38,531 bases of DNA from Nemertoderma westbladi. Lineage: Eukaryota > Animalia > Xenacoelomorpha. Location of the stretch: assembly GCA_032718475.1 (NCBI GenBank), contig JAUCBJ010002560.1, positions 1 through 38,531 of the forward strand. Reading direction: 5' to 3'. The stretch's first letter is position 1; each line of letters starts with the position of its first letter. Position numbers and translations under genes: made by a program. The notes under the pieces were generated by a model that saw only the letters and a program-made list of their open reading frames with translations, searched no databases and was not told where the DNA came from. This document shows, one piece after another, positions 1 through 32,608 of this stretch.

Positions 1-192
1 CCACAGATAGCTGGAAGTGGGGCCAGACTGTGGCATGAACAGGGACAAAATAACAACACGAACAAATATAACCCCAACACGCCCAGTAGGCCAAATTCAA
101 ATAACCAAAACACTAAACCGGTAGACGTAAACCTACGCGCAATACGTGTAGGGTTATATAGGGAACGTTACAACCCAGAATACAATTGTCAA

Positions 193-3100
193 TTGCATAA
201 AGACAGGACCCATAAGACCATGGACTGTAAGCATTGGCAGGCGTTACCCAAACAAGATCGGAAAGCCTATGCGGATAAGAATGGAATTTGTCACCGATGT
301 GTGATAGGGGGACACAAGGTTGAAGAGTGTAAGGAGACACCAGTAAGATTCGGTCAAGGCAAAGGTCAAACAATGGCGACAAGCACCATAGGGGCGAAGA
401 GGAGAGGAACGGTACTACTCGGGGTAGTACCAGTGAGGGTGATAGGGGAAGGCGGTCGATCAGTAACCTCATTGATGCTGGTCGACAGTGGAGCAGCCTT
501 CACATTGGTAGAGAATTGGGTGGCCGAAGAGATAGGACTAAAGACGAGGCCAAGTAGGATGGCGGTAACAACCATCTCCAGCAAAGATGAGGTCCTGGAG
601 ATGAGGACGGGACAGTGCGAGATAGCAGCGATAGCACCGGGATGCGATTATGGGGCGACCATCGACCCCATCCAGGTAATAGAATCGATCAATATCAACG
701 CCAGGCGACCAACCAACATCGAGGTCGAACAATACAGATTCCTGGACAACATCAATTTCTCGATACCGGAAGTGGACGTCAGGAAGGTATCCATCATAGT
801 GGGAATGGATTGCCCGACGGCCCACGAGAGAATGCAAACGGTCTTCGGCGAAGACAGACAACGTGACCTGATGGCAATTCTAACACCATTCGGGTGGACG
901 CTAAGCGGCCCAATTAAAACCAAGATTCCATTTAGGATGTCGGAGACATCAGGGTGCATGTTCGCGGGAACTATGAGGGAGATGGAAGATGAAGGAGCGG
1001 AGGAGCAGCTCAGGAGATTGCTGAGACAGGACTTTGAGGGACTAAAGGAGACTGGGGTCAGAACCTCGGTAGAGGATAAACAAGCGATACAAAGCATGAA
1101 GGACTCGATGAGATGCGAGGAGGGACGGTACACCATAGGCATGGTTTTGGAAACAGACGAAGCTACCGTTGCCTGACAACAAGAGGATGGTACTCACGAG
1201 GCTTCGCAAACTGAAGCAAACGCTGAAACAGAGCCCCGAAAAGGATGTGTACATCCACAAGACAATAAAGAAGTATGTCGAGAAAGGATGGGCCGTGGAG
1301 TTGCCGGTTGACGAACCGAACACGGACAGGACCTACTATCTGCCACTTCATGTGGCTTTAGATCCAAAGAAAGGTAAATTGCGGATGGTAGTTGTCGCAT
1401 CGGCTAAAACCAACGGCAAGTGCCTAAACGACTATCTGCTGGAGGGCCCCAATATCTATAACTCGGGAATCGAGGTCCTACTGAGATTCAGAAATGGGAG
1501 ACATGCCTTCACCTGCGACATCGAAGGCATGCTCAACCAAGTCCGTGTGACAGAGGAGGATAGCGACAGCCAGCGCTTCCTATGGTACAACAGCAACGAG
1601 GAACTGTCGACAATACCGATGTACAAGATGGTGGTGCAGAACATGGGAGCCAAGTCGTCCTCATTTATGACGACTGTGGCTGTAAGAGATACAGTAGAGG
1701 GGAAAGATAAGGGAAGTATAAGTGCCTAAGGGAAGTATAGTGCCTAAGCGATCGATATGATTCGACGCGGCTTCTACGTAGACGACGGGATGGAGTCTGG
1801 AAACACGGTTAAAGAATTTCTGGACACAAGGCGCGAGGTTCGCGACATCCTGAAAGGATTTGGATTTAACCTGGCCAAGTTTCAATCCAGCGCAGAGGAG
1901 TTTATGAAAGCCATAGAGGACAGGCGGCCAGATTCGACAATGGACAACCCCACGACAGCCAAAGGACAGGACATGGCGAACAAAAGAGTGGATTCTCAGC
2001 AGAAGGCGCTGGGGATCGTATGGAACCGGAGACAGACGAGTTCAAGTATCAACTGAGCCAGGAGGGCGCGGACACCCACACAAAGTGGGGCTATGTATCA
2101 TACATAGCAAGGATATACGATCCCTTAGGCCTAGCATCCCCATTGTTAGTCACGGGGAAACAGATACTTAAGAAAGTATACAAGTTAAAGGACGAGTGGG
2201 ATACAGAGGTCCCGGATGAAATTAGCAAGCAATGGAGTAAGTGGAAGGGGAGTTTAGAACAGATGGGGACGTACAGCATGCCACGCGTGTATTTTCCGGA
2301 CGGGGACAGGACGGACTAGTACAGCGGGGGGCTTATAAGCCCAGACTTGCATTCAGTAAAGCAAAGTCGACGCCGCCAGATTCAGCGTCAGTCCCGAAAC
2401 TCGAGTTGACAGCTGCAAGACTAGGTGTAAGGGCCACAGCCTAATTGATGGACACTATTCCCAACATAGTGGAAACACACTACTGGACGGACTCCATGGT
2501 AGTGCTCGGGTGGCTGCACAACGAGAAGACGAGGTACCCTATATTCGTCGCGAATAGGGTGGACGAAATAAGGGCGACGACAGACTTGGAAAGGTGGCAC
2601 TACTGCCGAACAGACGAGAACCCAGCAGACTTGTTATTGAGGGGCGTGGCACGACATACTTTCTTAAAGAAGGAAGTGTTGTGGCAGCACGGGCCACACT
2701 TCCTGAACGATAGATCGGCCTGGCCACCAATGAAGAAGGTGGACCCAGGTTAAGAGGAAGTAGCACCAGGGGGAGAGGAAGAAGACTCAGAAGGAGAAGA
2801 GATATATATTCAGATGGTGAGGGAAGTCAGGGAGGTGCAACCGAAATTAGAAGAGCCATGTGACAACCCGACAGATAGGCTACTTAGTTACAGCTCTAGC
2901 TGGTACAAGACCAAGAAGTTGGTGGCGTAATGGAGGGCCTACAGGGATTTCCTCAAGGGAGTTGGCAAGGACGCCAAGAAGAAACCAAATGCTAAAGCCT
3001 AAGGCCGTGATACGGTATTGACAGAGAAAGACAGAGACTGAACAACAACAGCCTTATCATCCCACCAAAACCCATTATCATCCCCAACAGGTCGCCGATA

Positions 3101-4234
3101 GTCCACCAGATCATTTGGGACTCCTACAAGTCGATATTGCACGGAGGCACCAACCAGACCCTCACAGAAATTTGGAGGACCTTCTGGATTGCGCAGTTAA
3201 GGAAGAAGGTGAAGGCGGTAGTGGGGTATTGCCAGACCTGCCGACGGATGAGAAAGGAGTGGGCCGTACAGGAGATGGCGCCATTACCGGTCAGTAGGGT
3301 GAGACAGCACGACCCGCCATTCACGCACTGCGGCATAGACATGTTCGGGCCGATCAAGATCAAGGTGATGCGACACACAGAGAAACGATACGGCATCATC
3401 TTCGTATGTAACAACACGAGGGCGGTAGGAATAGAACTCGCCCAAGACGCCACGGCATCGGCATTCATCAATGCCTTAGAGCGATTTAGAAACCGCAAAG
3501 GTGGAACGATTGCAGTGATCTATTCCGAGAATGGAACGAACTTTGTGGGAGCAGAGAACGAGTTGGCGGAGGCCTTGGACATCCTGGAAGGAGAAGAGGT
3601 CAGGGAAGCCATGCAGAGATGACAGGTGAAGTGGGAAAGGAGGACGCCGTATGCGCCGCATACTTTAGGATGTGTCGAGAGACTTGTGGGTAGTTCCAAG
3701 CGTCGATTGACGAAGTTGATGAACACCCACATGGTGACAGAGGACATTCTAAGGACGGTGCTAGCTAAGTGCGAGGGAATCATCAATAGCAGACCGCTAT
3801 ATCCAGAGAATGACGACCCGGAATCACTAGACGTGCTAACACCGAGCCACTTTCTGATGGAAAGGCCGGCGACCATCGCCATGCGGGGAGTAGACCCAGT
3901 TGACATACACTCCCGACAGAGTTGGAAAGTCGCCAAGGCGATAAGCACAGAGTATTGGAGGAGGTGGGTCGAGGAATATCTACCCACATTACACAGAAGG
4001 AGCAAGTGGAGAAATACCACTAGAGAGTTAAAGAAAAGTGATTTAGTGATCGTCACCGACGACACAATCATCAACAATCAGTGGAGGCTAGCGAGAGTAG
4101 TAGACACTTACCCCGACGAGGACGGAAGAGTCCGATCAGTGGAAGTGCGGATAGGGGGTAAGATAGGAGCAAAGGATAGGAAGACCTACAGGAGGGTTGT
4201 AGGAAAGTGCACCCCAGAGTTTAGTCATCCATGA
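193..4234 (+). pseudogene. Disrupted gag-pol polyprotein of the BEL/Pao element
   Basis: Coding sequence is split over ORFs 193-1176, 1169-1729, 1757-2056, 2020-2319, 2445-2753, 3137-3622 and 3626-4234 by frameshifts and stops. A ~19-bp tandem duplication at ~1709-1748 breaks RT. The second integrase catalytic Asp reads IYSENG instead of IYSDNG. Confidence 0.9.
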
Positions 4235-4242
4235 GTTGGACT

Positions 4243-4250
4243 GAGGGGGG
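4243..4250 (+). promoter_or_regulatory. Polypurine tract (PPT)
   Basis: GAGGGGGG lies just after the integrase stop and directly before TG at 4251, the usual BEL PPT position. Confidence 0.6.
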
Positions 4251-4532
4251 TGGGATTGAGGGCGAAACGCCCTTCCCACGCAAAATATTAAAATAAAAAA
4301 ATAAAATAAAATAATAGAAAGAAAGTTAGAAAGGAGAAAGTCAGAAAGTGATAGTATTAGATAGTACGTAGCACTAAGTAGTAGTTAGAAAGTCAGCAGA
4401 AATTAGTTGTAGTTAGAAAGTTAGTAGTAGTTAGAAAGTTAGCAGAAGTTAGTTGTAGTTAGAAAGTTAGTAGTAGTTAGAAAGTTAGCAGAAGTTAGTA
4501 AGAGTTAGAAAGTTAATAGAAGTTAGTAAGAG

Positions 4533-4826
4533 TAAGAGTTAGAAGTTAGAGATCAGGGAGTGTGGTATAGAGACATACCACGGGAGTAAGAGGGTACATA
4601 GTACCGTAAGAGTTAGAAGTTAGAGATCAGGGAGTGTGGTATAGAGACATACCACGGGAGTAAGAGGGTACATAGTACCTTAAGAGTTAGAAGTTAGAGA
4701 TCAGGGAGTGTGGTATAGAGACATACCACGGGAGTAAGAGGGTACATAGTACCGTTAGATTTAGAAGAATAGGGAGTGTGGTATAGAGACATACCACGAG
4801 GGTAGTAGGAGGGTACATAGTACCGT
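4533..4826 (+). repeat. 74-bp tandem repeat (3 near-identical copies plus 1 diverged), each with two hairpins
   Basis: GATCAGGGAG recurs at 4551, 4625 and 4699. Each unit carries GTGGTAT-agagac-ATACCAC and GGTAC-ata-GTACC. Confidence 0.9.
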
Positions 4827-4834
4827 TGGAATAA

Positions 4835-5010
4835 GAGAGTTAGAGAGTTAGTAGAGTTGGAGAGTTAGTAGAGTTGGAGAGTTAGTAGAGTTGGAGAGTT
4901 AGTAGAGTTAGAGAGTTAGTAGAGTTAGAGTTAGAGAGTTAGTAGAGTTAGGGAGTTAGTAGAGTTAGTAGAGCTAGTGGAGTTAGTAGAGTTAGCAGTA
5001 ATAGAGTAGA
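4835..5010 (+). repeat. Purine-rich minisatellite (AGAGTTAGTAGAGTTGG)n; related (AGTTAGAA/AGTTAGTA)n array at ~4380-4530
   Basis: Directly visible periodicity of about 17 bp. Confidence 0.85.
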
Positions 5011-6468
5011 GAATATGGTATATGGATACAACACACCATAGCAGTAAGTAGTAAGTACATAGTAAGAGACAAGTAAAGAGGTGGGTACGATGATAGCACA
5101 GAACAGGGGCAAATACAGATAAAACAAAAAAAATCAAAATTAAAATTAAGAATATCAGGACCACCCCCGAACTACAGAAGAGCCTTCAAGGTGACCTTCG
5201 AAGGTCTGGTGACCACCCGGGGCTGAAGGGCGAGTCGGTGTACTACAACAACCGGCATCTAGTAGACAGGGAGGTGGATTTGGATACACCATATCAGAGG
5301 TGGGAGAAGTTGGAAGCGGATAGACTTGAGGAGAAGCAACTGGAAGAAGTCGCCAAACGAGAAAGGCGGAGAAAGAATGAAACGGGCGAGACTGGGAGTG
5401 ACGAGTCATATCACCTCCGAGCGAGGGGGTTAAGGCGCGTCATGTAGATGAGCATATAATATAATATATAATTATAATAATTAATTGTTATATATAACTC
5501 ATATATATATTATACAGTATGTACCGTAGTCAAGTACAACCTTTTTCCAATTAGCTACTGGGACTGGGGACTAATTGACTAGGGCGACAGGGCGGGACTT
5601 AGACGGCTCCCACTAACATGATGCGAACATGTGTGGGGCCCAATAAGTGTATAAGGGATGAAAGCGAGAATGGGAATCGGGGGGAAGAATGGAGGAGGTG
5701 TTGACACGATGAGGGAAAGTGAGAGGAGTGCGATTCGGGTGTGGGGAGCGAGTAAGATAGAGTAGAGTGGAGTTAGAGTGGAGCTGAAGTGGAGTTAGAG
5801 TGAACTTAGAGTGAGAGGAGTTTTTAAAATTGTGTGAGGAGTCCACAATTGTCTCAAACAGAGACGTCAGATGTCTTGGTGCAACATAGGTTGCGGTTGC
5901 ACCAAGAAGGGGTAGTAACATCATACCCAGAGGGAGCGGCCTGGAAAGCCGACTCCAAGAAAAGAACTCCACCCCACACCCGATAATAGATCGGGTTCCA
6001 GCGGAATTGAAGCGCACTTACAGGTGATGCTATCTTCTCACCGGGAAGATAGCATGGGGGGGAGTGTATGCGGATTCAATTCCGCCGCACTACCCTCACA
6101 AATTTGGGAAGTGGCACCCTTTTCAGCAATATGTTGGAGATACGAGATTGGCAATAACCAATCTCGTATCACAACCAACACCGGGGACAACACAAACCCC
6201 AAAGCCACACAAAGGAAGGTTAGAGGTCAATCCACCTCGGGAGGGGAAACAACCAGCAGGGGCCAACAGCAGGGGGAAGCACTCCCAGAGAGGGGAGAGG
6301 CGTGAAGTAGATTATCAGCCAATAGGGGCGAGGGAGAGCATCCACTAGGTGAAAGGCCGCAGTAGTATAGGAGTAATCACATATATATTATCCTGCTACC
6401 GGTCTGTGAATCAGTCAGTTATCAGTTATTGGTTTTAGGTGTAATATTATGGGTTTGTTCAGAAGTGG

Positions 6469-6570
6469 AAAAAATGGGAGCGCGTCACCGGGGGTTGAAC
6501 CAGCGCTATACGTACGTTTCGGCCTAACAGGCCTCATCAGTAGCGCTAACCAGCTCAGCCACTAGCCCCT
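6469..6570 (-). promoter_or_regulatory. tRNA-like internal Pol III unit (A box, B box, oligo-T terminator) enclosing the hammerhead
   Basis: Minus strand: A box TGGCTGAGCTGG (6561-6550), B box GGTTCAACCCC (6501-6491), then GCTCCCA-TTTTTT (T6 at 6474-6469). Confidence 0.7.
6502..6547 (-). ncRNA. Minimal type-I hammerhead ribozyme
   Basis: Minus strand reads AGCGCUA-CUGAUGA-GGCCU-guu-AGGCC-GAAA-CGUACG-UA-UAGCGCU. It has a perfect 7-bp stem I, an invariant CUGAUGA/GAAA core, a 5-bp stem II, a palindromic short stem III (ACGUACGU) and a GUA cleavage triplet (cut between 6509 and 6508). Confidence 0.9.
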
Positions 6571-7807
6571 GACACTCACAGTCCCACCTAATTTGGTTTT
6601 AGTGCAGACCGGTGACAATCCTCACCGTCACCAATATATCCACATACCGGTACCCATCGAAACTATACCATTCGTTACCCTTTATTGTGCTATTATTCAG
6701 TTGCCCATCATTATTACCCATATTCAATATTAACATTCAAAGTATCAAAGAGATAACAACAAAATCTTATTTTATTATTTCACTACTACGGTGACGCGTA
6801 GCTTATTCATCCGGTCGGGATCCCTTGATCCCGTCACAGTATTATTAAATGCGTAATATAACTAGAAAGCCAGCAAGCTGGCTGGAAGGAGCCCGGGGGA
6901 AAAATCCTAGCCAAGACTATTACAAAGAACTATGTCAGTCAGCAGTAAGTAAACTAAACACTTGTCTAAACTGTAAGGCGTGAGGCTAGCTGACTTTGTG
7001 GCTCGCCCCACATAATAAAAAATGCAACTTAGCTACCACTAACAAAAATATAATATGAAGCAAATAATTTCATTATCAAGCACGTTTACAAGATATAAGA
7101 TGCGATTACCGAATATTTATAAAAAATGCCCATGATGCACAACCAGATAAATAACAACGAATAGAGCCAAATAACAAATTTAGTTTCCTTCTATAGGTAT
7201 TACCCCGTCGTCAAGCGGAATATCTCTTCCCAGTGAATTCTATGTGAATATGTAATATAGGTACTCCTTAGGCGGTAGGCCAGAGCGGGCTCCTTAAATA
7301 CATGCAACTACTGTATTATAGTGTAGGTCAACTATAAAACATTTTGCAATCCACAGTGAGTATCGACTGAAATAGGACACAACACACTGCTTTGTGTAAC
7401 TAAAATTCATTCTCCTGATCCACCCCCTAACATAGCAGAGTGAGTAACCTTATTGTAGATATACCCTTAGGAAGCACTGGGAGAGCAATCAGCTTATGGG
7501 GTAATACATTAGAAACCAACAGCTTATGTGTGAGTTTCCTTATAGCCTACTAGTAAAACTTGGCAACCAACACGTTTTTCTATGACTGTGTATAACATAT
7601 TAAGCCATATTTCATCATGAACACCAGCTGTTATTTTACCATTGCTTTTAATTTCGCGACAAAACAATGTCAAAAAACTAAATATATCGAATACCACACA
7701 TAGAATCGATCTGAAATTTTGTAACGCGATTATGAACCACCAAAGCAATGTACTTGCAAAATTTTATCAAAATCGCCAGGCAGGAAGTGCCTTAACCTAG
7801 ATAATTA

Positions 7808-8729: not shown

Positions 8730-9232
8730 TTTTTGTATGCTATGTAAATGATATGATAAGTAGTAATAGATCCCGATTTTAAACTCATTTTATATGCCGA
8801 CGACAGTGCTCTTATTTTCTCTCATAAAGATCCTATCCATATTTCCCAAAAGTTAAGTGCAGTTCTAGAATCCTGTAATGAGTGGTTGGTTGATAATAAG
8901 CTATCCATTCACTACGGTAAGACCGAAAGTATTTTGTTTGGTTCTAAAAGAAAGTTAAAGAAGGTAACTAAGTTTGAAGTCACTACTAATGGACATAAGA
9001 TTGAAAATAAAAAGGAAGTTAAATATTTAGGCGCCACATTGGATAACAGCTTATCAGGAGAAAGCACAGTGAAAAATATTTTCTCGAAAGTTAACAGTAG
9101 GCTTAGGTTTCTATACAGAAATAAAAATAGTTTAAACACCGACTCCCGCAAGTTACTTTGCTCTTCTTTAATACAGTGTCACATGGACTATGCATGCTCT
9201 TCTTGGTATGAAAGCTTAACCAAACAGCTTAA
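8730..9232 (+). mobile_element. L2/CR1-group (Crack/Daphne-like) LINE RT fragment, left half
   Basis: Contains YVNDM, LILYADDSAL, WLVDNKLSIHYGKTESILFGS, VKYLGATLD and CHMDYACSSWY. Interrupted at TTAA 9229-9232. Confidence 0.88.
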
Positions 9233-9542
9233 GGGGGGGTAGCATCCTTTTGGACTTGCTCCACGGTTTTGCTTATAGCAAGGACAATTTTGATTTCTAG
9301 ACCACATTATTTGGTCCAAGGCTCCTACAGATGTTGCTCTTCACGTTTCTGGAAAAAAATTTATTTTTAATTAAAATGATTAAATTTTTAATCGAATTAT
9401 TTACATTTTTAATTAAAATTAATTGAAACCCTAATGCTTTAGATCTACTGTACTTTCCATGGGAATGTAAGATTTGGTAATAATGCTTTCAATAAGGTAT
9501 AAATTGAAAGCTTTCAGCTCTGATTTTGAAAATTTCCAAAAA

Positions 9543-10306: not shown

Positions 10307-11605
10307 TTACATAGCATCCCCGAAGCCACCTGGGATATATGCTTGGTCATCACCGGCTAGTAGACCAGCCTTCTTAGACTTGCTACCTTTCCTGGAGTAT
10401 TTGGCACGTTTCAACTTTCGAATCGAGCCAGCGATCCTTCTACTGTCACTCCTCTGAGCCAACACCGTGGCTGCCGATGTTTTTTCGATAGTCTGTTTGG
10501 ACAACTTGCCTAGGACAAGGTTCCTAGCTGTAGCACCCTCATTGAAGGCAAGGACTGCAGCTGCAACTGCTAAAGATATGCGCTGTCTACCCCAAAACTT
10601 ATGTTTGGGAGCTCTTGCCCAGATGAGGCTATTGAAGGATTCACTAACGTTCTGCGTATATCCGGGAACACACCGCCTGAGCAGGTTAATATCTGATAAC
10701 CGTCTATACACAGGCAACAAAAGAGATAAGAATATTGGGTCCAAGTGGTAGTCTTTGTCTATGTGTTTCCCATCCTTTTTGTATGAACACCAGTTATTAT
10801 CTGGGCAGAATTTATGGACATCTTCATCAGTTCCATGGCGTATCCCATGCCTAAACGATGCTAGAATGTTTCTCTTCATTGTCTGGACACACGCCGAAAT
10901 TTCCACCTGGGTTCTAGCTGACCTGTCGATGGACGATCTAATGGCGTTGCCATAGTAACGGCTCAGTCTTTCTATAGTTGATAGAGTCAGTCTATGCTTC
11001 GCACCACCAATAAACTTTCCATCTGCGAGTTTGCCCTTGTGTGAGTCCTTCAAATCGCGTAGAGCCTTTCCAAGTCTCTTCTTGACGTGGTTTACGCAGT
11101 CAATCTTGTTTACGCGTTTACACTGGACATCCCCAGTGTCATGCTTCGCCCAGATCGCCTTACCCGTGTCAGATTCATTGAAGAGAAGTTTCTCCTTATT
11201 TGATTTCTTGCTGTAAGTTTCGCAATCGTTACAAGATCCGTATATATCAACAACGGCATTGTATGCCGTTGAATCTCCATCACAGACTACAGATGTATAA
11301 CTGAGTCCATGACTATCAGAGTCCTTTCCATCAACAGACTTCTGAAATAGTTCTATGGCTATGTCTGCTTCCATAGACCCGCTACTGCTTGAGTATCTGC
11401 CTGGACATTGCGGTATATGGTTTTCCATAACTGAAATATATGACTCTGAGTCTTTAGGATATGGGGCAAATTCACAAGCATTGCAAATTTTATTTCTCAT
11501 TGCGTAGTCTAGAATTTTTCCAGTTGCCATCCCAATGACTGCTCCCACCCCACTGTTTGAGGTATGCCCACGGGTACCCCATGTGCCATCGAAAGAGACA
11601 GTGAC
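10307..11605 (-). CDS. Transposase exon 2 (catalytic DDE domain; 'Mutator-like transposase' Pfam-type family), 432 aa
   Basis: Acceptor ttttAG|GTC at 11606/11605 is in frame with ORF 10307-11548. Motifs: VSFDGTWGTRG, TGKILD, CNAC, SSGSME, CDGDS, KIDCVNHVKKR, RLT..YYGNAIR, H..CP..WC, TQNVSESFN.IW..APK. Confidence 0.88.
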   Translation of the reverse strand, partial: VTVSFDGTWGTRGHTSNSGVGAVIGMATGKILDYAMRNKICNACEFAPYPKDSESYISVMENHIPQCPGRYSSSSGSMEADIAIELFQKSVDGKDSDSHGLSYTSVVCDGDSTAYNAVVDIYGSCNDCETYSKKSNKEKLLFNESDTGKAIWAKHDTGDVQCKRVNKIDCVNHVKKRLGKALRDLKDSHKGKLADGKFIGGAKHRLTLSTIERLSRYYGNAIRSSIDRSARTQVEISACVQTMKRNILASFRHGIRHGTDEDVHKFCPDNNWCSYKKDGKHIDKDYHLDPIFLSLLLPVYRRLSDINLLRRCVPGYTQNVSESFNSLIWARAPKHKFWGRQRISLAVAAAVLAFNEGATARNLVLGKLSKQTIEKTSAATVLAQRSDSRRIAGSIRKLKRAKYSRKGSKSKKAGLLAGDDQAYIPGGFGDAM

Positions 11606-14250: not shown

Positions 14251-16782
14251 AGAATGTTGCTCTTTTATGTTGCGTTTTATTCAAATTTTTTTTTATATAG
14301 GCCTATGTTATAAACAAATAAAGTTGAAAAAATATTTCTTTCATAACAAAAAAAATCTGCCATATTTTAAAATAAATAAATAAAATCTGAAATATTTAAA
14401 AAAAATACAATAATATTGTATAAATGTTGGGTAACGGCAATATGTTCCAGAACATTTATATGTATCAAAACTTAAAAAATAGCTAGATAAAAAGTATTAT
14501 AAAATGATCAATAATGCCTGATAGGGCCCTGGTGATGGAGACGTTTTAAAATTCTTTTCCAACAACAATTGTAAAGCGAAAATACAAGTCTTTTTAAATA
14601 TAAGTATTATACAATATTCTATATATTAAAAGGTGGTGTACATTTAGTATATTACCTTTAAAATTGACGTAACAACTTCGATAAATCGGTTTCCCAAAAT
14701 AGTTAGGTCTTCAAGCTCACCATCTCCCAAATCCAACGGAATCATCAAATTTCCATCAAATTCTTCGTATCGCGGCAATCTTGTTTCGCAAATCAATGGC
14801 AAAAGTCCTTTCTCATATTGCTATCGCTGCATTTTTCTTGCGTTTCCAACTTTTGGATTTTTTGGATCTATCGCCTTACATAAGGCGGTAGATCCAGATA
14901 AGGCAATCTTTCTCAAACCTAAATGTCACTATTAATCACAATATTTTTTAATTATTTTAGTCAAAGCACTCGTTGCCTCCAACTCTCTTTAAGGTTATTT
15001 TCATTGCCTAAATGTAACTTATTACTGCAATGTTTTGAATCATAAAAACATAATATTCTAGAATGTTTAATGTTGTTGCTAACACATTCTCTACATAGAT
15101 TAACATTTTTTTGGTAATTTTGTTATGATTTTATCCTCCAAACAAACGGCAATAAAAAAAATTGCTCAACCTTTCCCAAAGTCTTTATAGCGAAAATTTA
15201 TTGTTATAATGTTGAACAACATCATGAGCAAATAAAATTGCAGTCATACGCTGGAGAACGGTTCGTTAGTAAAATGTACCGAGAGAAAGCCGCCCCAATA
15301 TTAGATTATAACAACAACATTTCCATTGGGTAAGAAAGTGGAGAAGAGCCAGGCCCGACTCTCAATTTTTTAGTTTATATTACGCGATCAATTTTCACTC
15401 ATCTCGTCATGAACACAACATGTATGTAAACTTTTGATAAATTTGTTGGCTATGCGTTTGCGGTTGTTTGGGCGGAGTGTGGTAGGCCTAAACTTTTCAC
15501 ACTGAAACATTTTGGTTCTGAAATTTTCAGGGCACAGCGATCAGAGATATTTCATATATATTTTATTATGAGAGGAAGAAGAACATACAACGTTATTTAC
15601 TATATATGTAACAAAATAATTGTTTTCGGGTTTAACTTGGAAGCCTCCCCAAATAGTTGATATACAATTATATTTAAAATTATTTCCATGGTCATGGTCA
15701 TACACCCGTCTTTAGTTAGAAATTTGTTTGCATGAAAGACAGTTTAGTTTAGTTTTTACTGATTTATTATCTCTTATCTGGCTGGGGTAATAATAAAGGA
15801 TAGGATAAATGGAAGCAAAGTGTGACAGTAACAATTATTTCCCTGACAACCGAGCATGTCTTAAGTATACGATATCTAAAAGGGGGAAGTTTGGATTCAC
15901 TGCATAAATGCAGTTCACCAAACTTCCCCCGAATGCACACTGTAACTTCCCCCTTCCCCCAAATATCCACTGTTAAATTAATTTGAAGCGATATAATAAG
16001 TACAAAATTGTGCGAGTTTTTAATTGTGTAGTCCATTTGTTATTTGATCTCCATTTATTGTTTAAAGTGCATTTAATATCACACTGGTTTTTTAGAATAT
16101 TACAACCTTATGTTTTATTTATTAACCCAATCGAAGCCTTAATAAGGGCCGCTTATTTGTACGCATATCCCTAATGCGCTCAGTATGAGCCAAACAACAT
16201 ATTAATATGAAAATAAAGTATCTGCAAAGAAAAGAACCCAATGCTATATAATTTGACCTTATTAAAAAATTTGCACTTTTGCACACTTATTTGTACAAGT
16301 GCACTTCAGCAGATCGTAATGGTGGCTCTTATTTAACTATTACTTATGTTTATCCTCTACCGATCTACGATGGTGTATGATCAAGTGTCAGTCACTAAAA
16401 GTGTAAAAAATATAATTTAATAAATCGCGACATTTGCGATTTTGGACCATATTCATGGGCATTTTAAGTCACTTTATATACATAAAAAGTTAAACAAATG
16501 TTACGATTATAGTTAGAAATCACTCCAAACTACATTTTAATCCAAAAAATAACATTCTACGATGAATGGAACTGGAAATAATAGTGTTTGAAATATCGAA
16601 AAAATGTGTACTTTTTAAGTGCATTATGCACTAAGTGCACTTGCGTCTTTTCCCAAGTTGTATCCTATTTCACACACTACAATCTATCCTCTATCCAATG
16701 AAAAAGGTTTCAGATCAAACGGCCCAGTAGAACAGAAGTTATTGATGTTTAAAAATAATCACTCGAAAATTTCAAATTCTCT

Positions 16783-16856
16783 TGGTCACGTAGTCTAGTG
16801 GTAATCAATCACGTTAACGATACTTAAGTTCATGGGTTCGAAACCCAATATGACCA
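16783..16856 (+). other. tRNA-derived remnant (A/B boxes, decayed cloverleaf)
   Basis: GGTCACG-TAGTCTAGTGG...GGGTTCGAAACCC-AATATGACCA. Acceptor-like GGTCA/TGACC pairing is present, but there is no sensible anticodon arm. Confidence 0.55.
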
Positions 16857-18449
16857 TTCTTAATTTTTTGCAAAAAAAAAATTTTTAATTTTTGACTAAA
16901 TTTCGGTTCTGGTGCTCCAAATTAAATAAAATTGGTATATTCTTTGCCGTAATTTTTTTTTCTATCTTTTGAGAGGGGGTATTTTTGGCCCCAAAAAAAA
17001 ATGAAAAAAAGGGCCAAAATTACGCGATATTTTTCGACCCTTAAAACTCGTTATTTTAATTATAAATGTTAAGAAAAAAGATAGTGGAGTTAATTTGCTA
17101 CATTTTACAGGAACTTTTGGCGCAAAAAGTTAAATTATAATGTAATGGCGATTTATTAAAAAAAAATTTTTTCGTCCCTTTTTTATAAGTAGTATATTTC
17201 ACACGATCGTCTGCCGCTTCAGTTATATAATAGCTATGGCGCTGTAACTACCGTTGAAAGATCGATAATTTGACTCTCTATAAGACTGTTTAAATAAGTC
17301 TCCCAGACCTTATGTATTTTTCGAGCTAGACGAGTTCCCGCGAAGCGAGTTTGTAGCGTGAAATTATAATTTGGGCCCTAATTTTTTTAATATCGTTTGC
17401 GCGGCAAAACCAATCGAATATTTGGATTCCCCGTATCGATATTAACCGTATAAAATGTACTTTAACCTTCAAGAGTCAAAAATAAAAAAGTTGTTAGTTA
17501 AAAACTTTTTATTATTTTCTGGCCCTTTTTGGACCCCTTTGCCTACATATTTTTTGTACCCCCATTCGATAGGAATGTAGCCCCTGTGGTCTTCTACGCT
17601 TTCCGAAAAAGAATTGGCAGATTCCTACTAGCGTTGTCGAATTAAAAATTTTGGAAATAATAATTATGTAAAAAAGATGGAAAAAACGGACAAAGTTACG
17701 GCCCCTTTTTCCACCCGAAATATTAATAAATATCTTACTCCCATTCGATACGAAGGTAGTACCACTCTTCCCCTTTCCAACCGCGTTAATTTCATCCCCG
17801 TACGATTAATATTAGCCGAGTCAGAGCGGATCCCGCAAAGCCATTTTGTCCGTTTTTTCAACTTTGACGGACAATTTCGGGAAAAAGGCGTGGTAATCTT
17901 TTTTGAAAAAAAAAAACGAATTCACTAATTAATCCCTTCTATCGTATCCCGGCGTCGGTTAAGCAATAACCTAGGGTTTTTTCGAGCCACTGTAGAGCGC
18001 CTTTCAAAAAATTTTTAAAATTGTCGAAAAAATGACGGTTTTTTGTCCGCCGTGTCCGTCGAGGGGATAGATTTGCTAATGTTTGAGTGGCTAATATCTT
18101 AGAATTCCGAGTCGCTCCCCTGGTGCAAAAATAAAAAAAATTGGTCTGTTCCTTCATCGAAAAGTCCCCCAGAATCCCAAGTTAACCTATATAGTTAGCG
18201 ATGGCCTGCGGCTTTAGGAGCGGCCGCGGTATTCACCTCCCTCATAGCGGCCGCGGCGGTGTTGCGTCAAATGGAGAAATATTTATCCCACCAAGCGTCT
18301 ACTCGACTATAGTGTGTAGTATTTATTCAGTATATAAATAGGAGTATTTAGTGAAGTATATAGAACAGTACATGAGTATTTATGTGATGTTGTATTTATT
18401 TATATATAACTTACGATATTACTACCGGTACATACATTATATATTCATA

Positions 18450-18737: not shown

Positions 18738-18786
18738 TCTACCGGTATACAATATATTATTATCCTACATACAGTACAGTACTTAC

Positions 18787-19428
18787 ATCTGAACCAACTT
18801 TGAGCTTCAACGCCTTTCGCGCTTCACTCATCTTCTCCTCTGCCAGATTAGACACAACTGCGTTGATCTTATTGATGTTGAATGTCCATGTTGAATTTGC
18901 TAATGTGCACGGCATTTCCAAGCACTGACAGATAGTGTATAAGGTTTCTATGCCGTTTCCAGTCTCACAAAGGCCATAGACCATTCGGCTATTCAAATCA
19001 GCAGAGTGCTGTTTATTGTAAACAGTATCATCTGTTCCATACTTTCCTTCAGCACACTGCAAAATATCGCTAAACTCACAATGTGAACACTGAAAATAAG
19101 CAACAGAGTCAATCCCGAGTGTAAGATGGGCCAACTGTTCGACCTTCAACTCTCCGGGGCACCCGCCGCTATTATGAGCACGTCCTACTAGGTCTGTGAT
19201 ATTCCGCATACTCATTATACGGTATCCAGTTGTACTGTTCGAGAATTCATTACAGTTGTTCGTATTATCTCCTAACTTGTCAGTACTCGCTGTTATTATC
19301 GTCTTGTTTACTTCTTCCACTAATTCGACATTTGCGGACTCCACGGGATGGCGTGACAGGTACTGCGCCTTCTGTAGTTCAACCTGTCGGCTCTTAGTAA
19401 GCCTTGATAAAGCTTTCAATCTCGGCAT
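18787..19428 (-). CDS. Transposase exon 1 (214 aa; Cys/His zinc-binding region)
   Basis: ATG at 19428 (MPRLK...). Motifs GYRIM, H....C, LG......QCSHC, DLNSRMVYG..ETGNG..L..IC..L.MP are typical of this transposase N-terminus. Phase-0 donor GAT|GTAAGT at 18787/18786. Confidence 0.82.
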
Positions 19429-20009
19429 TGCAGCTCTCAAATGTGGCAACACTAGGTACCGGTAGAACAACTGAATACAATTTGTATATAGCAAACCCCA
19501 TGAATACTACAGTAGTTCAAATTTCCCGCCATGAAGAATAAGAGCTGGTACGGTAGTATGTAGCGTTAGGTCAAAGTCGAGTTAGGTCCATTTCTTTATT
19601 TGCTAACTTTGGATCTATATCTGAATCTTCGGGTCAAAATTTAGATCCAGTGGCATTAGTATTGTAATGCCAATGTCTATCGATCGGGCCAGGCGGTGAA
19701 TCCGCCAATGACCCAAATTTAGCAAACAAGGATACGGAACCTACCAGTACTTGGACCTAACGGTGCACAACCCAGGAGCTCCATACTGTATGTTGAGTTT
19801 TTGTAAAGTCGAAAATTGTTTAAAAAATGCGGATCTTCTTCCAAACTCCAGTAATATAAATAGTGCTATCTCAATAACTAAGCAAAATTTTGTAAAACGG
19901 ATTGCAGATTCGGGTTCCCCATAAAATTTTGGACAATAATCAATTAAAAAAACGAAAATCATTTTTTTTTCAAAAACGATGCTACCCCCCCCCCCCCCCC
20001 CCCCCCCCC

Positions 20010-21750: not shown

Positions 21751-23107
21751 TTTAAGGTTTACTTGTCACGGTTTACTAAGAGACGGTAACAAAGGGAAGA
21801 CAGCTGGGTCATCATCGGTTTAGTAAGAGACGGTAGGTATTAATAATAAAGGTAGAGATAATAAAGTAGATGATTTGGAAATTAAGTTGTCATATAGATC
21901 TGTTGATCAAATTGAATTAGTTAATTACTAAATTCCTAATTAAAATATTATAATTACTGTAAATGTTCTTCAACTCACAACATCAAATTTAAGGCATTTC
22001 ATTGGTTGATTCAAACATCAACAAATACCCTTATCTTCACTATCAAACTCTTAATAGCATGTCTTGCTTACTTAATACCTGTAGGATTTCCATGTGCGTT
22101 CTGTTGTATTTAGCGATTAAACACTGGATATCTTTTTGTAGGTAGATGATGAGAATTACAGTTCAGGCCACCAGAAAACGCAGATTTGTTCAAATGTGAA
22201 CACATTTGATCAAATATGTGAAAGTGTAATGTAATATACCTCTGCTACGCAATATTCAAATGACATTAAGTTATTATTTTTCTTCAAATAATTTGCTAAT
22301 AATATAATACAGTAATAATATAATGTTCTCATAGAATCTGGATCGATGATTTTAACAATAAAATTACATATTGTAAGATAAAAAAGTACTTTATTAACCT
22401 TTTGCCTCTCGATCTGACTTATTTATCTACCCCGCTGCGTTCGGTCGGTAAATAACAGATCTCGGGACGAATGTTAGAAAAATCTTTATTGATAGCAGGG
22501 ATTGGTCTAGCACTGGGTTCTGGGTTTATGGCATACTGGACTGTTACTGTTCCAAGCCGGCCTAAACCAATTTACGACTCCAGTGTAATACCTATAATGG
22601 GGAATACGTTGTTATATGTAATACGTATATGTCATACGTAATATGTTGTTACGCCCTGGGGGCTCTCTCGTCTACCTGATATCAGCACACGCACCGCACA
22701 CAAAGCTTTTGTCGGTCCCAGCAAGTCAGCCTCAAGCTGTGTGATCTAGACATGTGATCATATTTGATGAAATCTGCTTTTCTGGTGGCCTGTACTGTAA
22801 AACATACGATGCTGTGCGATCTAAATCCATGGAGCAGTCTTGTGATCAAGCTTTATAAATTCTGCGGCTAGAACGGATTTTGGATTCGTTTGTGATGAGT
22901 TCCAGGGAAGTAAGCAATTGACAGAATTATCCAAGACCATTCACATAATTGAACAAGAACAACAAATCAATAAAATGTGTCCAGCTTGATCAACTAATAA
23001 AAGATATAATTAATAAATTAGCATTTCAATACGTAATAGTAAAGTACATATAATTAAATTCTAATTGAAATATTGACATTGTAAATTAAATATTAATAAT
23101 AATAATA

Positions 23108-24220
23108 ATGAGGTTGACATCAAGATGGATTGTTGCTCTGGTTATCGTCATAGTAACATGGTTTGCCATTCTAGAATATCTATCAACAAGTTCAGAACAA
23201 TATGATAGTGTCATTGGTGAAATGACGCGAAAATTCAAACAGGAAGATGAAAATATTATTTATGACGTAGAAATAATAGAGAAAGGTAATTTTAGCAGCA
23301 ACGTAAATGCGGAAACTTTGATAATTAATGCCCAACGAGCAACTCCAAACAGTATTAAAGTTGTACCAAATATTGTACACCAAATATGGCTGCATGAACC
23401 AGAATTCCTCTTCATCCACTATATATGTCTTATATCTATATACAAAAATTTGAAACCGGATATTATTTATTTCCACACTAACATGGGTCTCGATTTCAAT
23501 GGTAGTTATGGCAACTCAAAACCATGGTTCGAGCGAGCCAGACTCGCAATTCCAGTTCTAGTTGTCAAGGAGATAACCCCTCCAGATTATGTGTTTAACA
23601 TTTCAATATCAACTGAATTTCGGGCTCCACACCAAGCAGACGTGTTGCGCCTCGAAATATTAATGGAATATGGAGGAATATATTTAGACGGTGACGTTTT
23701 TGGTCTGCATCCATTGGACAATCTCCGTTACTATGACTACACAGTGAATGAGCACGAAATTAAAGCACTAATGAATGGAGTTATTGTGGCCAATAAAAAC
23801 TCTCTATTTTTACGGCTTTTCTATGAAAGTTACATAAATTATAAACCGAATTGTTGGGGGTGCTCATGCTGTGTTGCCATGGAAACAATTGCCAAGAAAT
23901 ACCCTCATTTAGTTAATGTGGTGAACGACTTAGTTTTTCCTAAATGGCCTCAGAGCGGAATTCAATTCTACGCTAACTACAACTGGATAACCGAAAAATA
24001 TACAACTCATATATGGTTGCGGGAATGGAATAATCGACACGAGAAGATCACACCCGATAATATACATTGTTTTAATTCGTATTTTGGTAAAATGATGTAT
24101 AAAATATATATGGGTGAAACAGAACAAGAATATGAGAAAAAGTGCACACACCGTGAAAGAGCAACAAAGATTCCCAAATACATGGTTAGATCAAGAAAAT
24201 TTCGAAGAAAGGGTTATTAA
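23108..24220 (+). CDS. DXD-motif glycosyltransferase, GT32-like (alpha-1,4-glycosyltransferase family), type II Golgi membrane protein, 370 aa
   Basis: Short N-tail plus a hydrophobic signal-anchor (WIVALVIVIVTWFAIL) and a stem. Motifs VPNIVHQIW, HQADVLRLEILMEYGGIYLDGDV, NGVIVA...S.FL and HIW. The ORF is uninterrupted. Confidence 0.9.
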   Translation: MRLTSRWIVALVIVIVTWFAILEYLSTSSEQYDSVIGEMTRKFKQEDENIIYDVEIIEKGNFSSNVNAETLIINAQRATPNSIKVVPNIVHQIWLHEPEFLFIHYICLISIYKNLKPDIIYFHTNMGLDFNGSYGNSKPWFERARLAIPVLVVKEITPPDYVFNISISTEFRAPHQADVLRLEILMEYGGIYLDGDVFGLHPLDNLRYYDYTVNEHEIKALMNGVIVANKNSLFLRLFYESYINYKPNCWGCSCCVAMETIAKKYPHLVNVVNDLVFPKWPQSGIQFYANYNWITEKYTTHIWLREWNNRHEKITPDNIHCFNSYFGKMMYKIYMGETEQEYEKKCTHRERATKIPKYMVRSRKFRRKGY

Positions 24221-27500: not shown

Positions 27501-27769
27501 ACAAATTCATTAACAAATCTCACTCAAAGATACAGATAAATTACACAATTTAATTCGCCGTCACCCACCCCACAACAATTCATTTATTATTATTAAATAA
27601 CAGCATGATGGCCGGCATACGGCACGGGGTATCAGTGGTTTCTACAGCACTGAATATAGTAATTATTTGAGGCATGGTTGCCACTGCACTTCTGGCAGCA
27701 CGGGAATAACGTTGTACTTTACTTTGAGTGATTGTAAAAGACTAAGACAGTAAAAGTACTAAGAAACTA

Positions 27770-28857
27770 TTACTGCTCAGCTTCAGCTTTCTTGGCATCT
27801 AGAACACGGATATGTCAAGCATTCCCCTTAGAGAGAGGTGTAAGACAAGGCAGGATGTTATCCCCAATTCTTTTTAATTTCTATATGTCTAGTCTTTTTA
27901 AGGAGATTGATAACAGTGGTCTTGGTGTGCACATAAAGGCAGAATCTTTCGGTGGAGTGAGCTATGGTGATGATATCATTCTTGCAGCAAACATGAAGTC
28001 TGATGCAGAGAAACTTATGGCCCTATGCTGCAATTACTTTGAAAGACATAAGTTGCTTCTAAACATAAAAAAGACTCAATTCGTATACCTGAATGGTGCT
28101 AGAGCGAGCAATGGAGAGGAATCATTGGAATTCATAAATGGGACAGACAGCATTATTTTGGTTTCTGTGAAGGATTGCAACTATCTAGGGTTGCCCTTTC
28201 CCATGACGTCGCAATCTTTGACTCAGTTTGTAAAATGTAAAATTTGGACTTGTGTCAGCAGAATGGAGGCACGTGGTCTTTGCATTAACAGTGTTCCACT
28301 GGCAGTTGTTGTTAAATATGGAAGGTGATGTGCCTCCCGTCAATACTGTATGGATGCTCGGAACTTGATAAGCCCAATATTGCAGAGATATCGCTACAAC
28401 TTCATAAAGCAATGAGAACTATATGTGCAATAGGAAACTATGTTTCTAATGGAATTCTATGTAAACTCTTTGGTATGATCAACCTGGAAGATTTCCTATA
28501 CTTCAAAACTGCGTCACCTACAGCATCTTAAATTGTCCTAATAGAAAGGTTCTTTTTTTCTTTCATAATTTAATCTGTCTGCACCTTGCAGGTTTGTCTA
28601 GTGCTCAGATTTTTTTCCGTTATGGTGTCTCCGCATGGCACCTCGGTTTACAAAGTTTGTCTTCTCTGAGTGTCTCTAGATACAGTTTCAAGGCCATACG
28701 GAATCGACATGGAAAATCTCAAGCCACCGAACTGAGTCCTGCTAGTCAGTATAAACTCTTTTTTATTGGTACCATACTGAGTTGCACCACTGGCTCACAT
28801 GCAGCTCGCCATTTAGTGGTATTGGACTTTTATAATCTTTATCAATAATAATAATAC
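27770..28857 (+). mobile_element. 5'-truncated LINE RT fragment (RTE-X-like), decayed, with (AAT)n tail
   Basis: Contains F.LERGVRQGRMLSPILFNFY..L..E...SGLGVHI, VSYGDDIIL, NIKKT, YLG and, after a frameshift, CLPSILYGCSE. (AAT)n lies at ~28843-28857. Confidence 0.75.
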
Positions 28858-32186: not shown

Positions 32187-32608
32187 GCCATGTCAATGTC
32201 TGACTTAGGTGTTTTTTCCTCAACAATCATAGGGAAGTATTGACTTGGGTTGAACAATAATTATTATTATTACCAATTAAATGGTTGGTTTGCCTATCAG
32301 AGTTCCTTGATGGTAGTATTTTTTAGAACAAATGATTTGAACCGTACTGTTGATGATTCCAGGCCATATGCTTATGTAAAACTTGTAGCATTGCCTCGAG
32401 CTAAATTCGTGACTCGAAGAGCATGCTCTGGACAACTTATTAATTATTGATTTGTAGACGTATGTGACGCTGTATGTGACTGTATGTTATATGTACTGTA
32501 CTGTACTGATAAGTACTGTACTGCAGTACTGCCTACACTACTGTGCTGTCTGCTGTGTCTTTTAATACTGATAGACTGAGTCGGAGTTATTGATGTATTG
32601 AATCCGAG

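What the first reader, a model, noticed from the sequence alone, without database searches (positions are those of the whole stretch)
6398..6613. Hammerhead ribozyme occupying the anticodon position of a tRNA-like Pol III unit
Seen (minus strand): GGGGCTAG-[A box TGGCTGAGCTGG]-TT-[complete hammerhead, 6547-6502]-[B box GGTTCAACCCC]-CGGTGACGCGCTCCCA-TTTTTT. The ribozyme replaces the anticodon/variable region. Its stem I strands overlap the would-be D-stem (GCU/AGC) and T-stem (GCUGG), so the tRNA-like and ribozyme folds compete. A 9-bp inverted repeat (ACCGGTCTG 6398-6406 / CAGACCGGT 6605-6613) brackets the cassette. Established: minimal type-I hammerheads with a palindromic stem III are typical of Penelope-like elements and cleave as dimers, and Pol III-linked hammerheads are known from schistosome SM-alpha repeats. 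Inference: this is a self-contained ~100-nt Pol III self-cleaving RNA, either a SINE/retrozyme-like mobile unit or a Penelope terminal module. No Penelope ORF or second hammerhead is visible in the window.
Basis: partly seen in the sequence, partly recalled or inferred. Interest (0 to 1): 0.85.

Follow-up and report, generated by a model that had tools for sequence, protein, structure and literature searches.

The report
Ribozyme repeat splitting its own promoter
A 154-base piece of an abundant non-coding animal repeat (seen as a 341-base head-to-tail unit), inserted with a 10-base target duplication behind an old retrotransposon, carries a hammerhead self-cutting motif between the two halves of a tRNA-type promoter, so its RNA likely passes on a working promoter only when uncut or re-closed into a circle, a new layout of a known kind of mobile element.

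Summary
The motifs are real: a type I hammerhead (6547-6502, minus strand; Rfam RF00163 E=0.0011, below gathering score) lies between a Pol III A box and B box, followed by T6. The boundaries are not as read. The mobile piece is 6439-6592, flanked by a 10-bp target duplication, and contigs of the empty site exist; the 9-bp inverted repeat belongs to the host, the non-coding tail of a decayed BEL/Pao retrotransposon. The piece is a fragment of a high-copy family, and one run assembles it as a 341-nt circle or tandem unit. The RNA is predicted to fold as a hammerhead, not a cloverleaf, and the A and B boxes can pair as the distal part of helix I. Best reading: an animal non-LTR retrozyme with its own Pol III promoter, like schistosome SM-alpha, but with the ribozyme inside the promoter rather than behind it. 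Cleavage, Pol III use, circles and the Penelope partner are not shown. The scan noted tRNA-promoter hammerhead repeats in other genomes before. New variant of a known kind.

The parts
6439..6592 (-). Inserted piece (154 bp) of a high-copy hammerhead repeat family
   Evidence: 10-bp direct repeat on both sides; loose ends of many contigs at 6436-6439 and 6592, and contigs that join across the site without the piece
6429..6438 (+). Target-site duplication, left copy (TTGGTTTTAG)
   Evidence: empty-site contigs carry one such copy (joint 6410-6600)
6593..6602 (+). Target-site duplication, right copy
6550..6561 (-). Pol III type-2 A box; its letters 6560-6553 can pair with the B box as distal helix I
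   Evidence: pairing probability about 0.6 in the 6577-6469 fold but 0.01-0.02 in the 6570-6468 fold; common family variant at 6554 keeps the box consensus and turns a G-U into an A-U pair
6502..6547 (-). Type I hammerhead, canonical metazoan geometry; predicted cut between 6509 and 6508
   Evidence: Rfam RF00163 E=0.0011; pattern and shuffle test; helices I and II at probability 0.63-1.0; cleavage not tested
6510..6517 (-). 8-nt palindrome forming helix III; predicted dimer interface
   Evidence: two cores co-fold at -42.4 kcal/mol against 2 x -15.7; monomeric helix III probability 0.02
6491..6501 (-). Pol III type-2 B box
   Evidence: no variant among the 40 rows shown of 50
6469..6474 (-). 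T6, predicted Pol III terminator; the only run of 4 or more T on either strand of the insert
   Evidence: kept in the main family variant (loose-end consensus at 6479)
6439..6468 (-). A/C-rich segment past the terminator, ending near the family's shared end; likely start region of reverse transcription
   Evidence: 73% A+C; loose ends at 6436-6439 with long, mixed flanks; role inferred from PMC11167929
6398..6406 (.). Left arm of 9-bp inverted repeat: host sequence, not part of the insert
   Evidence: outside the target duplication
6605..6613 (.). Right arm of the host inverted repeat
1..4234 (+). Decayed BEL/Pao LTR retrotransposon coding region in several frames (host element)
   Evidence: aspartyl protease, Peptidase_A17, Integrase_H2C2, DUF5641; broken frames
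4235..6836 (+). Multi-copy non-coding tail behind the BEL/Pao coding region (3' UTR/LTR or a nested LTR-like repeat) that received the insert
   Evidence: covered by diverged contigs in three DNA runs; exact LTR limits not settled

Best explanation
The piece at 6439-6592 is a target-duplicated fragment of an abundant non-coding repeat whose hammerhead motif sits between Pol III A and B boxes, and it is likely an animal non-LTR retrozyme that carries its own promoter and is likely copied by a Penelope-type reverse transcriptase from uncut or circular RNA. Shown: the motifs, the insert limits, the target duplication, the empty site, high copy number relative to the flanks, and one 341-nt closed contig. 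Inferred steps: (1) Pol III loads on the A and B boxes and starts near 6577-6573; most transcripts would stop at T6 and give a 100-110-nt RNA that cuts into pieces of about 65-69 and 38-40 nt; (2) longer RNAs, from read-through of T6 or from neighbouring Pol II promoters, cross two units of a tandem array, are cut twice (alone or as dimers through the palindromic helix III) and are closed by a tRNA ligase into 341-nt circles, as shown for coral, mussel and axolotl retrozymes; (3) a Penelope-type enzyme nicks AT-rich DNA and primes inside the RNA near the A/C-rich segment 70 nt past the cut site, and copies stop early, as this one did after 154 nt. Because the cut separates A box from B box, a cut linear monomer carries no intact promoter; this copy runs unbroken through the cut site, so if it was made by reverse transcription its template was uncut or re-joined.
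For: Hammerhead and promoter not by chance. 10-bp duplication exactly at the limits set independently by loose ends; empty-site joints in run X3 (6410-6600 and 6392-6596). 992, 751 and 56 contigs of three DNA runs lie on the 391-base stretch, with summed depth 187,000-453,000 over 6484-6567 against 93-3,077 over host flanks 6400-6427 and 6596-6720 in X1 (not a copy number). A 371-nt contig of run X4 overlaps itself by 30 letters, period 341, with 2 differences from the window piece. Unit size, duplications longer than 4 bp, absence of PBS/PPT and 2-bp helix III match non-LTR retrozymes (PMC7229834, Results parts 1-2 of 3). Shared lower end with long mixed flanks: 25 loose ends at 6436-6439 in X1 with agreement 0.54-0.59, and 2 listed long contigs stop at 6439 exactly. 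Internal priming in an A/C-rich stem-loop, AT-rich targets and uncut template are described for a Penelope enzyme (PMC11167929, passages and main text part 1 of 2). 5 of 12 listed DNA pieces with 30 or more letters beyond their upper end stop at 6573-6577, near the predicted Pol III start (25 of 1834 pieces listed; weak).
Against: T6 lies 35 nt past the cut site, so Pol III alone should not reach the rest of the unit, yet most family depth continues past it to 6442; the source of the long RNA is unexplained. The 341-nt closure is seen in one contig of one run whose RNA label is a guess and whose other contigs fall largely on the highest-copy repeats, so it may be a tandem DNA array; it was not seen as a joint in the DNA runs. 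The 185 missing letters could not be read. About a third of the depth in X1 and X3 carries C-to-U at the conserved G10.1-C11.1 pair (6521, a CpG site), so many copies may be weak or dead; only 1 of 9 frog retrozyme dimers cut in vitro (bioRxiv 10.64898/2026.07.22.740005, part 3 of 5). No Penelope element is in the window and no genome is held. 6 of the 12 pieces run on past 6592, and ends at 6573-6577 may be subfamily divergence.
Confidence: 0.65

Rival explanations
1. A SINE-like gene whose real product is the short Pol III RNA (start near 6575, stop at T6). It cuts itself or acts in trans, and the flanks are only the retroposition handle; the 341-nt repeat is a secondary satellite.
For: Conserved T6; depth falls 17-fold between 6554-6567 and 6582-6595 in X1, and 5 of 12 informative listed pieces stop at 6573-6577; the predicted 109-nt transcript folds with A box paired to B box.
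Against: The insert starts at 6592, upstream of any Pol III start, and ends 30 nt beyond T6; most family depth includes the post-T6 segment; no A-rich or simple-repeat tail.
Confidence: 0.13
2. The family is a miniature LTR retrotransposon of the Helenus/LTR-retrozyme kind: the A box, hammerhead and B box lie in a roughly 190-bp LTR and the 341-nt circle is LTR plus internal part; this copy is an aberrant fragment.
For: Helenus LTRs hold tRNA-type A and B boxes (PMC10886601, passages and sections 13, 16); an unchecked scan note reads a similar hammerhead-in-Pol III unit this way (e1-8596853); loose-end consensus letters could be read as TG...CA ends some 9 and 24 letters beyond the insert (low agreement).
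Against: 10-bp duplication, not the 4 bp of animal Helenus; both putative LTR ends missing in this copy; no TGG primer site in the 30 consensus letters past the shared end (noisy); plant LTR retrozymes use type III hammerheads.
Confidence: 0.1
3. The piece is the pseudo-LTR of an autonomous Penelope-like element that captured a tRNA promoter, and the 341-nt circle is its partial tandem.
For: Frog retrozymes share sequence with Penelope pLTRs; unchecked scan notes report tRNA-headed Penelope pLTRs in other genomes; insertion signature fits Penelope priming.
Against: The closed 341-nt unit has no room for an ORF; the frame from the AUG in the core is closed by 1-2-letter indels in family variants at 6476-6478; T6 directly follows; hammerhead geometry is canonical, not Penelope-minimal.
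Confidence: 0.09
4. The A and B boxes are only the strands of the ribozyme's distal helix I and resemble a promoter by accident; this is an ordinary retrozyme without Pol III use.
For: The boxes can pair with each other, so structure alone could conserve them; no cloverleaf, no tRNA call.
Against: A + B + T4 at this spacing appears once in 300 window-length shuffles; the A-box/D-loop pattern retrieves tRNA genes in 109 of 121 viral loci; the only T run of the insert sits where a terminator belongs.
Confidence: 0.03

Closest known systems
SM-alpha / Sj-alpha SINE-like hammerhead repeats of Schistosoma (as described in PMC6765202 and PMC8490949, passages; the 1998 primary paper is not held)
   Same: About 335-bp unit, type I hammerhead of the same geometry (RF00163), Pol III promoter inside the unit, no ORF
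   Different: The review describes 'a promoter followed by a hammerhead', which ends up at the 3' end of cleaved transcripts; here the ribozyme lies between A and B box, the cut splits the promoter, and a T6 follows the B box
Metazoan non-LTR retrozymes (PMC7229834, passages and Results parts 1-2 of 3; bioRxiv 10.64898/2026.07.22.740005, parts 1 and 3 of 5 and a term search)
   Same: 150-450-bp units, type I hammerhead with short palindromic helix III, duplications longer than 4 bp, no LTR/PBS/PPT, dispersed monomers and fragments, likely Penelope partner
   Different: No internal promoter is described in the passages seen ('promoter', 'tRNA', 'Pol III' absent from the preprint); circles and cleavage are shown there, not here
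Helenus / TRIMp3 miniature LTR retrotransposons (PMC10886601, outline, passages, sections 13 and 16)
   Same: tRNA-type A and B boxes inside a small non-autonomous retroelement of animals
   Different: Paired LTRs, PBS, PPT and 4-bp duplications; 'hammerhead' occurs only in its reference list
Penelope/Poseidon pseudo-LTRs, e.g. PAc of Anolis (PMC11167929, passages and main text part 1 of 2; PMC4209133, passages)
   Same: Type I hammerhead upstream of an A/C-rich internal priming site; AT-rich targets; 5'-truncated copies
   Different: No ORF here; canonical rather than minimal hammerhead; Pol III boxes around the ribozyme

Membership tests
Type I hammerhead (RF00163) | CUGANGA and GAAA core, NUH cut triplet, three helices open at helix I | tested here: met
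   (E=0.0011; 23.3 bits, under the gathering score of 34)
Type I hammerhead (RF00163) | Self-cleavage | not testable with these tools
   needs in vitro assay
Non-LTR retrozyme | Head-to-tail unit of 150-450 bp bearing a type I hammerhead | tested here: inconclusive
   one 341-nt self-overlapping contig in run X4; not seen as a joint in DNA runs X1, X3, X5
Non-LTR retrozyme | Non-coding; no LTR, PBS or PPT | tested here: inconclusive
   none in the 154 bp read or in 30-letter flank consensuses; 185 letters of the unit unread
Non-LTR retrozyme | Target duplications longer than 4 bp; many dispersed copies | tested here: met
   10-bp duplication with empty site, one insertion only; hundreds of contigs per run
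Non-LTR retrozyme | Circular RNA in vivo | tested here: inconclusive
   contigs cannot tell a circle from a tandem array; RNA label of X4 is a guess
Non-LTR retrozyme | Penelope-like partner in the genome | not testable with these tools
   no genome held; none among 17 window ORFs
SM-alpha family | Pol III promoter followed by the hammerhead | tested here: not met
   hammerhead lies between A and B box versus PMC6765202
tRNA gene | Cloverleaf with D, anticodon and T arms | tested here: not met
   ARAGORN and Rfam give none; D and T stems at probability 0.001
Pol III type-2 unit (tRNA-derived SINE head) | A box, B box at 30-60-nt spacing, oligo-T terminator | tested here: met
   60 nt start to start, T6; 1 hit in 300 shuffles; consensus recalled; transcription not tested
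tRNA-derived SINE (LINE-mobilised) | Copy starts at the Pol III start and ends in an A-rich or simple-repeat tail | tested here: not met
   insert starts upstream of the predicted start and ends in unique A/C-rich sequence
Helenus / LTR retrozyme | TG...CA LTRs, PBS, PPT, 4-bp duplication | tested here: not met
   for this copy: 10-bp duplication, no TG...CA ends; not testable for full-length family members
Penelope-like element (autonomous) | RT and GIY-YIG ORF next to the hammerhead repeat | tested here: not met
   none in the window; 341-nt closed unit; other loci not testable

The most novel reading that the evidence does not exclude
A mobile RNA gene in which one 60-nt stretch is at once Pol III promoter and ribozyme: the A and B boxes form the distal helix I of the hammerhead, the cut splits the promoter so that only re-ligated circles or multimers found new active copies, and the abundant T6-terminated 100-nt transcripts act in trans through the 8-nt palindrome as dimer partners or cleavers of the long precursor. 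That would be a natural Pol III-terminated, trans-acting hammerhead family and would answer, for one family, how non-LTR retrozymes are transcribed and why they need a circle.
Probability: 0.25. Interest if true: 0.72.

Novelty: new variant of a known kind. Interest (0 to 1): 0.48.

Why it matters
Animal retrozymes are abundant, but what transcribes them, whether circles are the template for new copies and what the ribozyme is for remain open (PMC7229834; bioRxiv 10.64898/2026.07.22.740005; PMC8557442 passages). This layout makes those questions testable in one 100-nt construct: the cut site lies inside the promoter, so the state of that junction in new genomic copies reports whether the template was cut, uncut or re-joined, and single changes in A or B box can separate promoter from ribozyme function. 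A compact promoter-ribozyme fusion could also serve as a design for Pol III-driven circular RNA. The locus itself is a truncated passenger in a decayed retrotransposon and probably has no host function.

Tried and rejected
tRNA-Asn origin of helix II: a pattern of window letters chosen with a recalled tRNA-Asn in mind hit tRNA-Asn in 17 of 17 viral loci, but this is circular. The A-box/D-loop pattern alone gave Asn in 8 of 109 tRNAs called among 121 loci (mostly phage tRNAs, a poor eukaryote panel), Asp tied with Asn for the helix II region, and random hammerheads matched some tRNA arm as well in 160-227 of 1000 trials and an Asn arm in 50-142 of 3000. Rejected as unproven. Relatives elsewhere: family patterns found 0 loci in metagenomes, prokaryote genomes and viral contigs; a loose hammerhead + B box pattern gave 4 viral loci and 117 metagenome loci, of which 116 were examined, 2 had helices I-III, and none of those had an A box. 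These collections hold little animal DNA. No RNA holder listed, which says nothing on expression. No genome held. No look-alike by sequence in earlier findings; none on hammerheads or Penelope in this genome's 19 notes. A 40-codon frame from the AUG in the core is not kept in family variants. The host tail is not richer in hairpins than the rest of the window (3.3 against 2.4 per kb), so I do not argue from that. Atlas search with the window's glycosyltransferase gave only 'eukaryote'. Paper searches for a hammerhead between A and B boxes or a Pol III retrozyme found no description of this layout; Ferbeyre 1998 and Lunse 2017 are not held, Repbase and Dfam could not be searched, and supplements with retrozyme sequences were not opened (PMC7229834) or are closed (bioRxiv), so an unremarked earlier example is possible.
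Full report
What is there. On the minus strand the window reads, in order, an A box (6561-6550), a hammerhead (6547-6502), a B box (6501-6491) and T6 (6474-6469). The hammerhead has a 7-bp helix I, the CUGAUGA core, a 4-bp helix II, GAAA, and a 2-bp helix III closed by GUAC, so that helix III is an 8-nt palindrome; the predicted cut is after GUA, between 6509 and 6508. The core pattern occurs once in the window and in 0 of 100 shuffles. Rfam gives nothing at gathering score, a weak type III match in a 1.5-kb search and a full-length type I match at E=0.0011 in a 181-base search. A box + B box + T4 at tRNA-like spacing occurred once in 300 window-length shuffles (box consensus recalled). ARAGORN finds no tRNA.

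Where it sits. Positions 1-4234 hold a decayed BEL/Pao LTR retrotransposon on the plus strand, followed by a multi-copy non-coding tail to about 6836. The hammerhead unit lies antisense in this tail. No genome is held, so I laid contigs of public runs on the stretch (4 of 7 listed runs, 4; X1-X5 in all). Many contigs leave the window sequence at 6436-6439 and at 6592. Exactly there the window has a 10-bp direct repeat, 6429-6438 and 6593-6602, and contigs of run X3 join the two sides with one copy of it and no insert. The insert is therefore 6439-6592, 154 bp, with a target duplication. It is a host hairpin into whose loop the piece was inserted.

The family. On the 391-base stretch 6330-6720 lie 992, 751 and 56 contigs of three DNA runs, and summed depth over the core is more than a hundred times that of the host flanks (the tool warns this is no copy number). 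Beyond 6592 the loose ends agree (0.69-0.73) and are mostly short, so the family goes on and this copy is truncated there. Before 6437 they are long and mixed (0.49-0.59), which suggests a shared family end at or a few letters beyond that point, 70 nt past the cut site. One 371-nt contig of run X4 covers 6592-6483 and 6512-6437 with 185 other letters between and overlaps itself by 30 letters: a closed unit of 341 nt, with 2 differences from the window piece. It may be a circle or a tandem array. X4 is only guessed to be RNA, carries another organism label, and its other contigs lie largely on the stretch's highest-copy repeats, so I do not count it as expression. Among the 40 of 50 variant rows shown, none falls in the B box, GAAA or the GUA triplet. 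Common variants are: 6554 (39, 43, 92% of depth in X1, X3, X5), which keeps the A-box consensus; 6527 (48, 53, 82%), in loop II; and 6521 (37, 32, 11%), a CpG change that weakens the conserved G10.1-C11.1 pair. One core position (6534) varies in 0.1% of X1 and 8% of X5. The main variant beyond 6479 keeps T6.

How it folds. The free fold is no more stable than shuffles (z -0.1), but helices I and II dominate the ensemble. The tRNA-like D and T stems have probability 0.001; forcing them costs 5.6 kcal/mol against the free fold, forcing the whole hammerhead 1.8. Hand-drawn structures are closer (cloverleaf -21.4, hammerhead -18.4, hammerhead with distal helix -23.5), so a cloverleaf is not impossible, only disfavoured. 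In the predicted Pol III transcript 6577-6469 the A box pairs with the B box as a distal extension of helix I behind a 5-nt bulge (probability about 0.6); with a start at 6570 this helix drops to 0.01-0.02, so it depends on the boundary. The common 6554 variant turns a G-U of this helix into A-U. Monomeric helix III is weak (0.02); two cores gain about 11 kcal/mol by pairing through the palindrome. Invertebrate retrozyme hammerheads with 2-bp helix III cut as monomers in vitro, amphibian ones better as dimers, so dimer dependence is open. The geometry is the canonical metazoan one, not the Penelope minimal motif. I tested the idea that helix II is a former tRNA-Asn anticodon arm and found it no better than chance.

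How it most likely works. See Best explanation. Shown are the anatomy, limits, duplication, empty site and abundance. Inferred are Pol III use, cleavage, circularisation by a tRNA ligase, and Penelope-type priming near the A/C-rich segment (73% A+C; compare). Two consequences follow from the layout. The cut separates A from B, so only uncut, multimeric or re-ligated RNA can hand on a whole promoter; this copy crosses the cut site intact. And T6 should stop Pol III 35 nt after the cut, although most copies include the sequence beyond it; either read-through or Pol II supplies the mobile RNA, and the short Pol III RNA is free to act in trans. This second point is unexplained and is the main weakness of the model.

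Comparison. It works like a non-LTR retrozyme and like SM-alpha. Membership of the retrozyme class is likely but rests on one closed contig; it fails the SM-alpha layout (promoter followed by ribozyme), the tRNA test, the LINE-SINE tail test and, for this copy, the Helenus and autonomous Penelope tests. Nine paper searches found no description of a hammerhead between A and B boxes; two primary papers were not held, repeat databases could not be searched, and supplements were not read. Papers seen: PMC10886601 (outline, passages, sections 13, 16), PMC7229834 (passages, Results parts 1-2 of 3), bioRxiv 10.64898/2026.07.22.740005 (parts 1, 3 of 5, term search), PMC11167929 (passages, main text part 1 of 2), PMC6765202, PMC8490949, PMC4209133, PMC5680766, PMC8557442 (passages only). 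Unchecked scan notes report tRNA-promoter hammerhead repeats in other genomes, mostly with the head in front of the ribozyme, and one with a hammerhead inside a Pol III-like unit read as an LTR; they gave me rivals and one paper, not support. That the organism is an animal rests on the repeat content and on such notes, not on a test of mine.

Verdict. Observation confirmed, interpretation partly supported. New variant of a known kind; interest 0.48. The bold reading (promoter and ribozyme in one helix, circle-only inheritance, trans-acting short RNA) has probability about 0.25 and interest 0.72.

Noticed in passing
window 16781-16870 (+): A second A box + B box + T-run unit, followed by an A-run; not called by ARAGORN or Rfam; probably a tRNA pseudogene or SINE head.
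   Followed up: no
window 5520-6836: Segment with TG...CA ends flanked by the same 5 letters (5515-5519, 6837-6841); may be a solo LTR nested in the BEL/Pao tail, or chance.
   Followed up: partly
window 5874-6170: Three perfect 11-13-bp hairpins in a stretch whose contig depth is far above its neighbours: a shared module or another nested repeat.
   Followed up: no
window 6850-7400: Another very high-copy repeat begins right after the BEL/Pao tail.
   Followed up: no
window 32594-38531 (+): Open frame of at least 1979 codons with 11.5 tandem 60-residue repeats and a weak Ulp1/Peptidase_C48 match; probably a transposon or retroelement protein.
   Followed up: no
window 4320-5005: Nested purine-rich tandem arrays (periods 9, 17, 46, 74) just behind the BEL/Pao integrase.
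   Followed up: no
window 23090-24220 (+): Intron-free DXD glycosyltransferase frame (PF04488), closest Atlas clusters eukaryotic.
   Followed up: partly
window 10307-11605 and 18760-19506 (-); 8760-9242, 27738-28328, 29217-31040 (+): Two Mutator-like transposase remnants, two LINE RT remnants and a long proline-rich frame without Pfam match that looks like a LINE tail (last label by eye).
   Followed up: no
window 6461-6468 and family flank beyond 6592: The letters after T6 are complementary to the family's flank upstream of the insert (loose-end consensus), suggesting a long-range stem that closes the whole unit in the longer RNA.
   Followed up: partly
L047 and L109 (metagenome loci): Well-formed type I hammerheads with short helix III, no A box upstream.
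   Followed up: no
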